DNA of 64,000 nt from Lobosporangium transversale (Eukaryota), in NCBI RefSeq assembly GCF_002105155.1, contig NW_019028980.1, positions 124,001 through 188,000 on the forward strand, in the 5' to 3' direction. Positions 54,779 through 60,178 of this stretch are shown here, piece by piece; position 1 is the stretch's first letter; each line of letters starts with the position of its first letter. Made by a program: the position numbers and the translations under genes. The notes under the pieces are model-generated. The model made no database searches. It was not told where the DNA came from and saw only the letters and a program-made list of their open reading frames with translations.

Positions 54779-55436
54779 ATGGTAAATAAGACAAGCATCA
54801 AGGAATCCAGACAGGACTTGAGTTGTAGATGGACTAATAGCGATGCATTCCCTTATTAAGTCTCAATTTGGTCATATGCTCACTCTTCTTTTTTTTTTTA
54901 TGATGGCGTATAACGATAGGATCGCTCGAATTTGAACAGCCAGCTGGAGCACTTGCAGTCCAAATACGTAGGAACTGGGCATCCTGATACCAGCAAATAG
55001 TAAGCAACGGAAGGGAAAAGAGGGGGAAAAACATGATTTAGTTCTTCTCATTAATGGTTGATTAAACTCTGTTATCCAAAGAGAATGGACAGACGTTAAC
55101 AGAAAGATCGATTGTTTTATTCTTCTTCAGCGAATGGGGCGTTAACCAGGCCCGAGATTCTTACGCATCTTATGTTGGACATTATCCTATGATCTCTTAT
55201 TTTGCTGTTGCTGAGAATGAAAGCATCGCTCGGATCAAATTCAACATTACAGAGGTAAAATTTACTATTACTATAAAAAAAAAAAGACATGTCTCTTTCT
55301 TTTTCATGAATAGTTGCTTAATATTTATATGGTTCCACACCTATTTGTTAACCTAAAAAAACGATATTTTTTGTCATGACGCCGCTTACAGAAAATGCTC
55401 CAACCTTGCGGTCCACCACCGGAGAGGAGGGATTAA
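54779..55436 (+). CDS. SF3B5: Splicing factor 3B subunit 5 (Ysf3/SF3b10); exons 54779-54781, 54920-54999, 55131-55254, 55392-55436; not in the ORF track
   Basis: Spliced protein: MDRSNLNSQLEHLQSKYVGTGHPDTSKYEWGVNQARDSYASYVGHYPMISYFAVAENESIARIKFNITEKMLQPCGPPPERRD*. All introns are GT-AG. Confidence 0.96.
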
Positions 55437-55709
55437 TTCCTTGACTTTATTTCGGTCATGTATTCTTGTATTTTTATTACTCAATAAATTCTCTTTTAAC
55501 CTACTAATATGGTCATCACCTTTACAAATATCTATAATCAGTTAATCAGAAACGTTGCCTATGAATAGATTAATATTTTAAAAGTATAACAAGAGTGAAT
55601 GAAGTAACTCCTGAACCACTTTTTTATTTTTATTTTGTTATTTTTATTACTTATTAATCTTCTGCTTAAACTGATATGGCTGATACGATATTTTCTACAA
55701 GTGGTTTGA

Positions 55710-56024
55710 TTAATTGCGTCCAAAGAGAGACGATCTATTCTTGTGGCTGGCCTTCTTAGCTTTTGCCTTTTTGGCTTTCCTCTTGGCTATCGATTCTGGT
55801 GTGGCGTTAGGAGAAGGGTCCAACTTGGCCTGAAGTTTGTCCATGGTCGATGGAGGAGTACGGCGAAATCGACTCATCAGCGGTGATGACTTTGATGATT
55901 TTGATTTCTTTGCCACCGAAGACGAAGTCTTACGAGGCCTTGAAGAGGATGAAGAGCTACCAGCAAAGATGCGACTGATAAAGCTTTGTTTTGGAGGAGA
56001 GGACTTTGACAAAGTGAGAGGCAT
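55710..56024 (-). CDS. Small Lys/Ser-rich basic hypothetical protein (104 aa)
   Basis: ATG-initiated, more GC-rich than its flanks, with a TATA-like TATAAAA upstream on the minus strand (~56116-56122). No recognisable domain. Confidence 0.55.
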   Translation of the reverse strand: MPLTLSKSSPPKQSFISRIFAGSSSSSSRPRKTSSSVAKKSKSSKSSPLMSRFRRTPPSTMDKLQAKLDPSPNATPESIAKRKAKKAKAKKASHKNRSSLFGRN

Positions 56025-56389
56025 GTTTGTTACTTAAATTCGATTGTCGTTACTGTTATGATAGTTGAGAGAAAGAATTTTTTTACAAGTGAAAAAAGTA
56101 GTGAAGAGATTGGGTTTTTATAGAGATTCTAAATATGCTCTCTGACTGTTGCGCATAGAACCATCAAGCATCCCACAGCGATATAGAGGAAATACGTTCT
56201 AAGATATTGATAGTATGACATGATTGTTGTGATGACATTGTTGCTGTTGTTGGTTATCGCTAGTTATTGTTGGTCTGGAACACATCAACAATGACGAGAT
56301 GGAGAATACAACATGGGTGTTTTAAAAGGAATTTAAGCATTTTAGCATTAAATACATGGGCATGAATGAAATCATTTCATGTTACACAG

Positions 56390-56620
56390 CGAGCAAAAAC
56401 CGTCCATGGAAGTTTGCGTACTAAATTATTGTTTACTAGCCGTAGATGGCCTGCTTCCGTGAACCATAAATCTAGCATTGCTATAAAGCTGTCGCTTCTC
56501 CACGAAATACGAGTTTTACGGCCGGTATAGTCCAGGAGGCCCTACTTGATGTATAGTCAAGTGATGTGTCGCCCGAGCTATGTTGTCTGCACCATTGTGA
56601 TCTCAATCACGCTCCTGGCG
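56390..56620 (-). ncRNA. Candidate omega-RNA scaffold region at the 3' end of the Fanzor remnant
   Basis: A GC-richer, stem-rich segment overlapping and following the Fanzor stop codon, in the position where TnpB/Fanzor omega-RNAs lie. No expression evidence. Confidence 0.35.
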
Positions 56621-57781
56621 GCAACTGGGACATACGATGGCGCAACCAACTAAGTTTCTAACGTTTTTGCATCTGCAGCACACCATCGAAGTGCGTCATT
56701 CATCAGCACACATGGTATTCAGTCTAAGTGATTTTATCTATCAACGATATAAAAAAACTTAGTCGATAACGTTTTCTATTAATTAAGCGTGCCATCCAAT
56801 TTGTTGCTATTGCCTTTTTTTAAGCAGAGAAAAAAATCGTTAGTAGAGTGTCTCGTCACAGCCTGAAGCAAACTCACCATCACCCAAGACAAACAATGAG
56901 TGAATGGAGTCCTTTCATGACTTTCCTTTACATCCTGCTGCAATCATTGTTCTATCGATTCCTTTGTTCTCAATAGCTGTCAGTGCTTCCCATAATGCTG
57001 CACTGACCTCTTGTTGCTTTTTTACGTCCAAATACGACCTTTGAAAAGCAACTGCGGAGTTATAGCCACTTAAGCCTTTAGGTGGGTAGAGAATTTATTG
57101 GTAGTCAAAGCTTGGCTCTCCAGCCTCTTGAGCTAATTGGTGCGTACGGGGTCTATTTTGGCTAGCGTGGTATATATGGCCTTTACTCCTCTTTTGCGAA
57201 AGAGGCTTTAGTTCAAGGTAGACTGGTGGGGGAGTTGGAGTGGCGAGCTCAGCAGCAGCTTGATAGTATAAGCCTGCAGTAGCCGAGGGAACCAATGTCC
57301 CCTCTACCCGAGGAAGCTCCAGCTTGTTGTCCTCTTGAGTAGGACAAACACAGCTGAGCTAAGAAGAGCAACCTGTGTCCATGCAAACCACTCAGCCAAG
57401 CTCGACTCCAAGCTCAGCTCCTGTTGCTTCTTCTTTACGTCTTCTTTCTTCCTTTTCTTTGTTTTCCCATTCTCTCTCCTGCTCAAGGAGAGCAAGTAGG
57501 GCACACTCGCCAATCGAACTGTAGATCCTGTCATATAACTTTTCTTCATCCTCTGCATCTTCCGCTTGCTGGTCTGCTAAATCCTCCACAGGTCGTGATT
57601 GGATGGTATGTGGCACAGCCCGCCAGGACTTCCGTGCTCGGATGATGTGTCGTACACCCGATGTGGCGCCGCTCGGCGGAGGAACGCTTTTCGAGTAGTT
57701 CGAACCGCCATAAACAGAACTTGACAGGCAAGTGGCTTGTGAGAGGTACAGTAGACGTCGAACGTGTGGAGCGTGCGGCAA
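56516..57781 (-). pseudogene. Decayed Fanzor (eukaryotic TnpB-family RuvC nuclease) gene, transposon-derived remnant
   Basis: One minus-strand frame read through stops gives ...ELGVELG*VVC (RuvC-I position) ...GYNSAVAFQRSYLDVKK...LFVLGDGEF...RFFSLLKK [intron-like 56738-56813] IKSLRLNTMCADE*RTSMVCCRCKNVRNLVGCAIVCPSCRQERD*DHNGADNIARATHHLTIHQVGPPGLYRP*. This matches RuvC-II E, CxxC..CxxC zinc ribbon and RuvC-III DRDxNxAxNI. The 5' boundary is uncertain. Confidence 0.82.
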
Positions 57782-58279
57782 ATATAATCTTTTTTTTTTT
57801 TTTTTTTTTTTTTTAAAGCTGAGCTGATAAAATATATGAAAGCGGTGAAAAACAAAGACCCTGAAGAAAACGGAAGCAGAGATTCAAAAACACAGGCGTA
57901 TTGAGGATTAGAACAGTAAAACAAAGAGGACAGGTTTACGTTTTAAATCTCCAGTTCATCGTAGACGCGGTCTTGGATAAACTTTCAAAAAGTTAAAAGT
58001 GAGAGTCATAAATTAAATTAGAAGACAACCAAATCACATTTTGGCATCCAGTAGGGCTATCTGTGTTTTCTCGGTAAAAAAACATCTGATATTTAATCAC
58101 TCTAAATCGAATAAAGACTCCTGCCACCAACAGATGAGTGAACCTTCAAGCTGTTATCAATGAATCCACCTATTAATTTTTTCATCTTTTTAATATAGAT
58201 ATTGACTTCTCTTATGCGTTACTTCCATGCAACACGAACACAGCCCGATCTGCCTCTCTTCGTTGCCAGATTCGTATCC

Positions 58280-60178
58280 TCAGGCACCTTCCCGATGATA
58301 ATCGAGTGGAGAATTATTACTTAAGCCACTATTATCATCATCTCTGCTGTCGTTACTATAGTTATTACTAATATTACTACCGCTACTGAGGCTGCTGTTG
58401 TTCTGTGAAATCAAATACCACCTTCGCTTACACTGATCTCTCGATATTGTGGGGTTACTGCCCATCATGGATGAGATCTTGACCCAATTGATCTTTTGAT
58501 GGTTCGGGAAATGTTGGTGTACCAGCTCTTCCAGCCGTCTTGTTAATGGCTCCGTCCAAGCCATAGGATGGTTCCTATCCATCCAGATCCTTGGAGAATA
58601 CAGTGGTGTTGATGATGGAAATGGTGATGACGGTATGAGTGCTGAAGCCTCAGAGGCATAGCGCACATGCCTTGAAATAGTATGTTCCTGTGACATAGTT
58701 GGTAATGGTTGTGCTGCCAGTAGCGAATGCTCGTTGATGATTGTAGACTGGCGATTTCTATCAAAATTAAGATCCATGGCTTCAATATCCAACGTCATAG
58801 CTCGCTTTCTCTGCAATCCTTCATTTAGCTGCTGCTGTTGCTTTTCTATCTCGCTCATGCTCCTTAAGGCACCCCTCTCATCAAATGGAGTCTCAAATGG
58901 AGTCTCAAAGGGAGAAGCATCTGGGTATTGGGGTGTCCTCAAGGATGATGTTGAATGGTGTCTGCCATGACGTGAATTCCGCGTTAGCCCTGTTGTTGGT
59001 GGCACTTCCGTATTAGACTGCCGCTGCTCTGGTTGCTGCTGTTTCAGCTGACGTTGTTCTGCTTCGCGCGTCTCCAAGAGGCTCCACATAGTTGAGATCC
59101 CAGCTGAAGAGCGCTCTGGAAGGTACTTTTCTTGAATTTGTCCCCATGATGGCCCAAATTCTTGATAACCACGTTTAAGTAGATTGATCTCTTCCTCTGT
59201 CCCCATGCGCCGGCGCATGATCTCCCATTTATTCTTGCACTGCTTTCGTGTGAAGACATTTCCCATCTGGGCTGCTACCCAAACCCAGTTAATTCGGTAA
59301 GATCCCGGAAAATAAAACTCGACCAAGTTTTTGAGGTACTCTGATCGCTCTGGAGTCCAGATACGAGCCATACGTTGATGTAGCTGGTACCGCTGTTGAT
59401 TTTGTTGGTTCAACTGTGCGGGAGGTTGTGCAGTGCCGACAGGAATATGATTATGCGGGCCATACTGCTGCCGATGTGGTTGTTTGTCGTGATTCTGTCC
59501 CATGTCATCGTCCTCATCTTCTATATTATCCTCATCATTTTCAACACAAAGGAGTGGCTGACTTGTTGAAGTTGTTATTACTCCCGATACCGTCGCCTTA
59601 GAATGATTGGACATCGCATCCTTGGTGCAATCGGACAACATGGCCATATTGTCTTTGGAGGACCGCATGCTTGATTCACCTGAAGTGGCTGTGACTGAAG
59701 GTGTGCGAAGTCTACTCGCGTTAAGCTCATAAATGTAACTATAATTATCCTGCCTTTGTTGCAGCTCCCAATTTTGCCCCTCCTCTTTATCCTCTCTTGC
59801 TCTCTCAAGTTCCTCTGATTTTTCTTCATATTCTTCGTTAGAGTCCGGGATTTCCGCATAAAGTCGTATATATTCTTGTTCGATCTCCTCTGCAGTCCTA
59901 TCCAGGTTCATGAGAGTCTTGGCTTGATACCATTGACCATAAAGTTTGTATTTTTCTACCGCGATATAGAGCGACTCTTGCTCAGTACTGGTCCAGGCTC
60001 GTCGCATGTTGGGTCTCCATTTGAGAGCAGGAGGCTGCTCGAGCTCCAGTGCCATTCTTTTCTTTTGTCTTTTATTCTCGTGATCATTACGTTGATCTGG
60101 TTGACTAGTATCCTTAAACTGTGGCTCGTAGCTGAGGTTGCTAAAGTCGTTGTTATCGCTGTTATCAACATTACCCAT
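58280..60178 (-). CDS. Myb/SANT-repeat protein (about four Myb-like repeats), single exon
   Basis: Myb-like repeats RRAWTSTEQESLYIAVEKY..WYQ, IWTPERSEYL..INWVWVAAQMG..TRKQCKNKW, TEEEINLLKRGYQEFGPSWGQI and AWTEPLTRRL..INWVKISSMMG..SRDQCKRRW. Confidence 0.88.
   Translation of the reverse strand: MGNVDNSDNNDFSNLSYEPQFKDTSQPDQRNDHENKRQKKRMALELEQPPALKWRPNMRRAWTSTEQESLYIAVEKYKLYGQWYQAKTLMNLDRTAEEIEQEYIRLYAEIPDSNEEYEEKSEELERAREDKEEGQNWELQQRQDNYSYIYELNASRLRTPSVTATSGESSMRSSKDNMAMLSDCTKDAMSNHSKATVSGVITTSTSQPLLCVENDEDNIEDEDDDMGQNHDKQPHRQQYGPHNHIPVGTAQPPAQLNQQNQQRYQLHQRMARIWTPERSEYLKNLVEFYFPGSYRINWVWVAAQMGNVFTRKQCKNKWEIMRRRMGTEEEINLLKRGYQEFGPSWGQIQEKYLPERSSAGISTMWSLLETREAEQRQLKQQQPEQRQSNTEVPPTTGLTRNSRHGRHHSTSSLRTPQYPDASPFETPFETPFDERGALRSMSEIEKQQQQLNEGLQRKRAMTLDIEAMDLNFDRNRQSTIINEHSLLAAQPLPTMSQEHTISRHVRYASEASALIPSSPFPSSTPLYSPRIWMDRNHPMAWTEPLTRRLEELVHQHFPNHQKINWVKISSMMGSNPTISRDQCKRRWYLISQNNSSLSSGSNISNNYSNDSRDDDNSGLSNNSPLDYHREGA

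What the first reader, a model, noticed from the sequence alone, without database searches (positions are those of the whole stretch)
56516..57781. Hidden Fanzor (eukaryotic TnpB-like RNA-guided endonuclease) remnant
Seen: the ORF-track fragments 57392-57781 and 57095-57295 share one frame, and that frame continues past the track to 56516. Its stops lie at 57392, 57359, 57095, 56915, 56840, 56696 and 56603, plus several inside the intron-like segment. The C-terminal ~60 codons read CADE*RTSMVCCRCKNVRNLVGCAIVCPSCRQERD*DHNGADNIARA...PPGLYRP*. Established: TnpB/Fanzor proteins end in RuvC-II (E-x-x-TS), a CxxC...CxxC zinc ribbon and RuvC-III (DRDxNAAxNI), and Fanzor1-type proteins have a hydrophobic-G-D-G-x-F segment before RuvC-II. 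That segment appears here as LFVLGDGEF (~56870-56896). Inference: the RuvC-I strand is GVELG (57395-57409, D replaced by E), and this is an inactivated copy of a fungal Fanzor family that may have intact relatives elsewhere in the genome. No transposase or terminal repeats were recognised nearby.
Basis: partly seen in the sequence, partly recalled or inferred. Interest (0 to 1): 0.92.

Follow-up and report, generated by a model that had tools for sequence, protein, structure and literature searches.

The report
Dead tail of FEN1-headed fungal Fanzor
This is the broken last eighth of a fungal Fanzor gene (a family of RNA-guided DNA cutters) sitting behind an unrelated repeated sequence; the piece itself cannot cut DNA, but its intact relatives in other soil fungi carry an extra domain predicted to be a flap-trimming nuclease.

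Summary
The motifs and stops are there as described, and the Fanzor call holds for the 3' end only. Window 56995-56516 is 56% identical (75 of 134 residues) to a Modicella protein that Saito 2023 lists as Fanzor1. It keeps the alternative RuvC-II Glu, zinc ribbon, RuvC-III Asp and the family's intron, but has four exonic stops and a damaged splice donor.

The 262 codons upstream do not match the family; they belong to a repeat found only in Lobosporangium transversale. Real RuvC-I, the recognition lobe and the N-terminus are missing.

Diverged copies exist in the same species. Full-length relatives (about 1,140 aa) fold as Fanzor1 plus a FEN1/Exo1-like head with conserved acidic residues. A CGTGGAG motif follows the stop in 4 of 7 loci, a candidate guide-RNA mark. 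No terminal repeats or transposase were found.

The locus is an ordinary dead copy. The interest lies in its family, which is catalogued but whose FEN1 head was not mentioned in the papers searched.

The parts
56813..56995 (-). Fanzor1 remnant, first kept exon piece (EALTAIENKG ... LFVLGDGEF ... LLKKR); the 5' limit of Fanzor homology is about 56995; stops at 56915 and 56840
   Evidence: Family HMM positions 1049-1111, iE 1.2e-15; tblastn of P0003, P0030, P0009 starts at 56989; alignment A1
56738..56812 (-). Family-conserved phase-0 intron after the KKK/KKR codons; ends in TAG; donor damaged (GC at 56813, one base short of frame)
   Evidence: 25-codon insertion in A1; GT..AG introns of 87, 86 and 92 nt at the same place in L003, L005, L007; donors and acceptors listed
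56516..56737 (-). Last exon: alternative RuvC-II Glu (56701-56699), zinc ribbon CxxC (56680-56669) and CxxC (56632-56621), RuvC-III Asp (56602-56600); stops at 56696 and 56603; natural stop 56518-56516
   Evidence: Pfam PF07282 E 2.7e-4; 57% to P0003 over matched stretches; the stops face W439 and R470 of P0003
56436..56515 (-). Candidate omegaRNA scaffold / 3' end: CGTGGAG at 56504-56498, CTAG at 56439-56436 (inferred, not shown to be transcribed)
   Evidence: CGTGGAG within 60 nt of the stop in 4 of 7 loci, null 1 of 5000 by two methods; the window's own fold is not significant, z -1.5
56996..57789 (-).
   Evidence: Only L. transversale paralogs P0004, P0012, P0020 hit it; no match to the family profile, hhalign probability 0.05%; up to 7 other contigs at 57210
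57790..58120 (-). 5' non-coding part of the repeat, with a 25-nt A run (57814-57790); outer limit about 58120, inferred from where extra contigs stop
   Evidence: Sequence; extra contigs at 57909-57969 and 58041-58080, none beyond about 58120 (tables 2, 5, 7)
58280..60178 (-). Neighbouring host Myb-domain gene (not part of the element); the public gene model splices it onto the repeat
   Evidence: Pfam Myb E 6.4e-16; P0002 identical over 630 of 631 residues; model exons mapped

Best explanation
Window 56995-56516 is the dead 3' tail of a Mortierellaceae Fanzor1 gene, and it likely moved together with the unrelated repeat in front of it as a non-autonomous element of about 1.7 kb that was copied several times and then decayed. 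Shown: the tail's identity, the lost RuvC-I, recognition lobe and N-terminus, the stops, the damaged intron, and diverged copies in the species. Shown for relatives: a protein of about 1,140 aa whose model has a FEN1/Exo1-like head and a Fanzor1 body with all three RuvC acids. Inferred mechanism of the parent: the protein loads an omegaRNA from the element's 3' end (probably the CGTGGAG..CTAG stretch plus flank as guide), cuts matching DNA such as the vacated or empty site, and the FEN1-like head trims the 5' ends so that repair copies the element back in. Inferred for this copy: it makes no nuclease and was moved in trans; at most its 3' end could still give a guide RNA, as ghost loci do.
For: Homology confined to 56995-56516 by HMM and tblastn. 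19 of 23 library hits cover this tail, 3 cover ORF-X, 1 is the locus's own gene model; 12 of the 22 non-self hits pass the Pfam TNB cut-off. The best hit P0003 = KAF9939674.1 and P0010 = KAG0320651.1 are FZ1 in Saito 2023 Supplementary Table 1. The model of relative P0030 (pLDDT 74) has SpuFz, PpFz and GtFz as hits 1-7 (E 4.5e-13 to 1.2e-9), then FEN1 and Exo1 (from E 4.1e-9). FEN1-type acids are kept in 10 to 12 of 12 sequences at seven positions. Copies: of 31 records laid in run X1, 24 are under 99% alike; of 33 in X4 (another study), 24. Extra contigs cover both ORF-X and the tail and end at about 56490 and 58120. One contig joins 56912 to a 31-nt piece above 56992, and loose ends at 57163 and 57091 read as diverged continuations (by eye). 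L002 is another internally deleted family copy (P0030 566 to 849 missing).
Against: No listed contig spans the whole composite, and the shared-junction evidence is one 31-nt side. More contigs pile on ORF-X (7 at 57210) than on the tail, so ORF-X may be a separate, commoner repeat. No terminal inverted repeat or target duplication was found, so the ends are not fixed. The window's 3' region does not fold better than shuffles (z -1.4 and -1.5), and only 3 of 7 loci reach z below -2. CTAG in 6 of 7 loci is weak once any 4-mer is allowed (603 of 5000). X1 may be the source sample. No activity of either nuclease was tested.
Confidence: 0.62

Rival explanations
1. Two independent repeats lie side by side: a 5'-truncated Fanzor1 tail of about 560 bp, and an ORF-X repeat that inserted into it or next to it. 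Nothing moved as a composite.
For: ORF-X has more paralogous contigs than the tail. Its protein paralogs P0004, P0012 and P0020 show no Fanzor sequence. Fanzor families with constant 3' and variable 5' parts and no terminal repeats are described (MCi-2; PMC3627910 section 12), although there the parts travel together.
Against: One paralogous contig carries window-like sequence on both sides of about 56992, and copies appear to run on collinearly from ORF-X to about 57060. No end or duplication is visible at the junction.
Confidence: 0.28
2. One reading: the whole frame 57781-56516 is one decayed Fanzor gene and GVELG is RuvC-I with D replaced by E.
For: One frame is stop-poor throughout (5 stops in 968 nt against 8 and 20 in the other frames). 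The spacing fits the published D-X(125,275)-TS motif. A forced alignment puts VVCMDTG against VVGIDPG, and two short collinear similarities to the relatives' N-terminal third appear at E 0.34 and 1.8.
Against: Forced identity is 39 of 230 upstream against 75 of 134 downstream. No HMM, tblastn or profile-profile match. The paralog reads AEIGSRECLNIG, with no Asp at either place.
Confidence: 0.04
3. The repeat has been exonised: the Myb gene really is spliced onto ORF-X and a little Fanzor sequence, as the public 837-aa model says.
For: The same model is on record under three accessions.
Against: The model's introns each skip in-frame stops of the decayed frame and it ends inside the old Fanzor intron. 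Its cluster has one member. The Myb ORF has its own stop at 58280.
Confidence: 0.06

Closest known systems
Fanzor1 (FZ1) Mortierellaceae clade in Saito et al. 2023 Supplementary Table 1 (PMC10432273), e.g. KAF9939674.1 node715, KAG0320651.1 node718
   Same: 56% identity over the kept tail; same GDG segment, alternative Glu, zinc ribbon and RuvC-III; same fungal family.
   Different: The window keeps only about 134 residues with stops; RuvC-I and everything before it are replaced by an unrelated repeat.
SpuFz1, PpFz1, GtFz1 (PDB 8gkh, 9cez, 9cf0, 9cer; PMC10432273, PMC11423790)
   Same: The relative's model matches them best (TM-score 0.5-0.6 by target length); rearranged RuvC-II as described in PMC10530073.
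   Different: Relatives add a FEN1/Exo1-like head of about 350 aa and a long linker. Spu-1 has 30-nt inverted repeats; none was found here.
Ghost Spu-1 elements (PMC10432273) and MCi-2 Fanzor1 family (PMC3627910)
   Same: Non-coding or variable 5' part in front of a kept Fanzor 3' end; MCi-2 also lacks terminal inverted repeats.
   Different: Ghosts lack the ORF altogether and keep inverted repeats; MCi-2 copies are 99% alike with intact ORFs and 11-12 bp duplications. Copies here are mostly under 90% alike and no duplication was found.
FEN1/Exo1/XPG 5' nucleases
   Same: The family profile hits only FEN1/XPG chains in the PDB (15 of 15, best E 4.5e-4); fold match E 4.1e-9.
   Different: Fused to a Fanzor in relatives; wholly absent from the window.

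Membership tests
TnpB/Fanzor | TS-x-x-C4 zinc finger followed by RuvC-III (R)D (motif in PMC3627910) | tested here: met
   RTSMVCCRC..CPSC..RD*DHN; Pfam TNB E 2.7e-4, below cut-off; the R before the Asp is now a stop
TnpB/Fanzor | RuvC-I Asp 125-275 residues before TS | tested here: not met
   No match to the family's GIDPG region in any frame; met in relatives, 12 of 12. This bars the claim 'whole or active Fanzor', not descent from one
Fanzor | Rearranged RuvC-II: canonical Glu replaced by Gly/Pro, alternative Glu about 45 residues on (PMC10530073) | tested here: met
   LGDGEF then ADE about 35 residues later once the 25 intron codons are discounted; that GDG marks the canonical site is my reading of the alignment
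Fanzor1 | Placement in the Fz1 clade | tested here: met
   By proxy: two library hits are FZ1 in the published table and the relative's model matches three solved Fanzor1s first. No tree was built here
Fanzor1 | omegaRNA at the element's 3' end | tested here: inconclusive
   Shared CGTGGAG motif; no Rfam match; folding not significant for the window
Fanzor1 | RNA-guided DNA cleavage | not testable with these tools
   Cannot hold for the window copy (RuvC-I missing, stops); untested for relatives
TIR DNA transposon (Spu-1, Mariner, MuDR, hAT type) | Terminal inverted repeats and target-site duplication | tested here: not met
   Best inverted match 12 of 16 or 9 of 10, none at the inferred ends; an old decayed copy could have lost them
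Autonomous transposon | Transposase in cis | tested here: not met
   Window neighbours are a Myb gene and a 104-aa ORF; 15 flank ORFs of L002, L003, L004, L007 gave no transposase family. Only L003 has long flanks on both sides
Helitron | 5' TC, 3' hairpin plus CTRR, insertion between A and T (recalled) | tested here: inconclusive
   A short GCC..GGC hairpin runs into CTAG-T at 56436; CTAG in 6 of 7 loci, but the any-4-mer null is 603 of 5000; 5' end unknown
FEN1/XPG 5' nuclease (relatives only) | Fold and conserved acidic active-site cluster | tested here: met
   single-sequence Pfam hits are weak and below cut-off; FEN1 residue labels are recalled

The most novel reading that the evidence does not exclude
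The parent family is a one-gene, transposase-free selfish element: a Fanzor1 makes an RNA-guided break and its fused FEN1/Exo1-like nuclease processes the ends to drive homing, while truncated composites like this one ride along by keeping the CGTGGAG..CTAG 3' end and may supply guides in trans. Near-identical intact copies in a Benniella assembly (92-96% identical) would be ready test material for a natural two-nuclease editor.
Probability: 0.25. Interest if true: 0.7.

Novelty: new member of a known kind. Interest (0 to 1): 0.33.

Why it matters
The locus itself is a fossil. It matters in three modest ways. It points to a Mortierellaceae Fanzor1 clade whose full-length proteins carry a FEN1/Exo1-like head that the papers searched do not discuss, with near-identical intact copies in at least one assembly. 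It shows why the clade is overlooked: a conserved intron just before the catalytic Glu makes most gene calls stop early (the Glu is present in only 2 of 12 aligned records). It also exposes a likely wrong public gene model that fuses a host Myb gene to transposon debris.

Tried and rejected
No whole genome is held, so intact copies, empty sites and ends could not be searched. Word-based homolog search of residues 240-421: 0 of 131 candidates. PDB sequence search with the window protein: 8 of 12 hits were TnpB/Cas12-like but all E 0.13 or worse. Rfam: nothing. Terminal repeats and duplications: none convincing; the 7-nt GTGAACC at 56459 and 58138 was treated as chance. Single-sequence fold of P0030 gave pLDDT 36 and was discarded. 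The broad alignment A2 was too loose for the locus scan; the closer A6 was used. Viral contigs: 0 relatives among 511 pattern matches. The Atlas gave no usable hit for the ORF-X paralog P0004 and one TNB-named cluster for P0030, possibly its own. Alignment of seven 3' ends showed no shared structure. No RNA holder was listed; the guessed-RNA run X5 has no contig on the Fanzor tail or joining Myb to the repeat, which is no evidence either way. Run X7 held next to none of the stretch and gave no empty site. A second, narrower laying of contigs was not obtained, so catalytic codons and ends in the other copies remain unseen. One search used the wrong frame and was redone. VVCMDTG as an alternative RuvC-I was considered and rejected (the paralog has N, within a Cys pattern). 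The VIA structure comparison was not run.

Full report
Observation. The C-terminal pattern is not chance: one match in the window and none in 200 shuffles, though the pattern was written after seeing the motif. Pfam's Cas12f1-like TNB model matches residues 359-401 at E 2.7e-4, below its cut-off. In the PDB, 8 of 12 weak hits were TnpB/Cas12-like, all E 0.13 or worse.

Organism and context. A database protein, P0002, is identical to the upstream Myb ORF over 630 of 631 residues and continues into this frame. Its sources name it Lobosporangium transversale, a member of the Mortierellaceae. Its exons map to 57736-57440, 57331-57185, 57073-56930 and 56811-56782. Each predicted intron skips stops, and the model ends inside the old Fanzor intron, so it is most likely a prediction artefact. 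The other neighbour is a 104-aa ORF without a Pfam match.

What is Fanzor and what is not. HMMER over 1.84 billion representatives gave 23 hits: the locus's own model, 19 on the C-terminal part and 3 on the N-terminal part. Of the 22 non-self hits, 12 pass the TNB cut-off (one WD40 fusion's list was cut). I looked up sources for 19 of the 22 (plus P0030); all organism names given are Mortierellaceae genera. A family HMM and tblastn of six relatives match the locus only from about 56995 to 56519, in one frame. Identity to P0003 is 75 of 134 there and 39 of 230 in the forced alignment upstream. The upstream part matches only L. transversale proteins P0004, P0012 and P0020. Its three-sequence profile does not match the family (probability 0.05%; a thin profile, so a weak negative). 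The paralog reads AEIGSRECLNIG against GVELG*VVCMDTG. RuvC-I is therefore absent, not mutated. Two short similarities to the relatives' N-terminal third (E 0.34 and 1.8) are too weak to use.

Family membership. P0003 is KAF9939674.1 and P0010 is KAG0320651.1; both are listed as FZ1 in Supplementary Table 1 of Saito 2023 (PMC10432273). That table also lists two other L. transversale FZ1 proteins, which I did not compare with this locus. An AlphaFold model of the full-length relative P0030, built on 38 sequences (pLDDT 74, pTM 0.51), matches SpuFz, PpFz and GtFz at ranks 1-7 and FEN1/Exo1/XPG chains below them. The family profile hits only FEN1/XPG chains by sequence (15 of 15, best E 4.5e-4). 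Seven acidic positions of the head are kept in 10 to 12 of 12 sequences, and the RuvC-I Asp in 12 of 12. By eye, 8 of the 19 rows in the part of the Saito table I read show the same head. Four of five other Benniella-labelled records are 92-96% identical to P0030 and one is 69%, which suggests recent spread there.

Intron. Against relatives the window has a 25-codon insertion directly after LKKR. Of 7 metagenome loci, 3 have a clean phase-0 GT..AG intron of 86-92 nt at that place. Two have an intron-sized gap that my script did not resolve, and 2 read straight through. The window's acceptor TAG at 56738 is intact. The donor reads GC and is one base short of frame. Many database records end at this intron, which is why the alternative Glu appears in only 2 of 12.

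Copies and ends. Five runs hold the stretch or part of it. Laying contigs at 80% likeness, 24 of 31 records in X1 and 24 of 33 in X4 (another study; X1 may be the source) are under 99% alike, and the extra cover lies on about 56490-58120. In X1, 123 of 163 changes are transitions. At 57361, five other contigs carry a base that gives a sense codon, so that stop is not shared. One contig joins 56912 to a 31-nt piece above 56992, and loose ends at 57163 and 57091 look like diverged continuations. This is modest support for a composite unit. Against it, more contigs pile on ORF-X than on the tail and none is listed as spanning both. No inverted repeats or duplication were found, nor a transposase family in 15 flank ORFs of four relatives' loci.

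3' end. CGTGGAG lies within 60 nt of the stop in 4 of 7 sequences including the window; any 7-mer reaches that in 1 of 5000 trials under each of two nulls. A CTAG follows 45-100 nt after the stop in 6 of 7, but any 4-mer does so in 603 of 5000. Folding is better than shuffles (z below -2) in 3 of 7 and not in the window. This is a candidate omegaRNA mark only.

Mechanism. Established for studied Fanzor1s: an omegaRNA from the 3' end guides cleavage, and ORF-less ghost loci give working omegaRNAs (PMC10432273, passages). Inferred here: the parent used the same guide logic, its FEN1-like head processed the cut ends to favour copying, and this truncated copy was moved in trans and has decayed.

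Literature seen. PMC10432273: passages, section 5, a term search of 9 supplementary files (one scanned PDF not searchable) and part 68 of 158 of the table. PMC10530073: passages, and a term search of 2 held files with no hit for five terms; its main supplementary PDF was too large to read and may bear on novelty. PMC3627910: passages and section 12. PMC11423790, PMC5499597 and bioRxiv 2023.08.09.552727: passages only; bioRxiv supplements are closed. Searches: Fanzor+Mortierella 0, Fanzor+XPG 0, TnpB+XPG one unrelated paper, and nothing on the fusion in the listings. FEN1, flap, exonuclease and XPG occur 0 times in the main texts of PMC10432273 and PMC10530073. Subscription papers were not searched. 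Earlier notes of this scan already report a FEN1-plus-Fanzor design in other genomes; I had reached it before reading them, and they are not independent evidence.

Verdict. A real but dead Fanzor1 tail, about one eighth of the parent gene, from a catalogued clade. Interest 0.33; the family-level FEN1 head is the part worth following, in intact copies elsewhere.

Noticed in passing
window 60178-56782 (minus): Public 837-aa model P0002 (three accessions) fuses the Myb gene to the repeat with introns that skip stops; likely an annotation artefact.
   Followed up: partly
window 57789-56996 (minus): ORF-X is a stop-poor repeat with a CxxxGCxxxxxCxC pattern shared with P0004; no Pfam or Atlas match; origin unknown.
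   Followed up: partly
window 57205-57295 and near 57587-57650: Run X5 (RNA only by guess, though it shows GT..AG joints in neighbouring genes) has contigs that differ from the window at many sites, i.e. another ORF-X copy; a weak hint that some copy is transcribed.
   Followed up: no
L002:2152-3449: Internally deleted, intronless family copy with a stop at the same Trp position after the alternative Glu (ADE*RTS) as the window.
   Followed up: no
L001:2628-2753 and L004:4777-4894: Two loci from one metagenome share about 125 nt at 73% identity some 120-160 nt past the stop; a shared element end or a shared target repeat.
   Followed up: no
L003:2850-8300: An apparently whole FEN1-Fanzor gene sits alone between a HEAT-repeat gene and a BAR/PH gene, leaving little room for a transposase.
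   Followed up: partly
window 55710-56024 (minus): 104-aa Ser/Lys-rich ORF with no Pfam match, covered by one 512-nt contig in run X5.
   Followed up: no
run X7 on window 55154-56160: Contigs differ almost only by C>T (59) and G>A (12), which looks like a bisulfite-type library rather than a strain difference.
   Followed up: no
proteins P0014, P0022, P0044: Database models that fuse Fanzor tails to host genes (WD40 in P0014; unidentified in the other two), the same kind of artefact as P0002.
   Followed up: no
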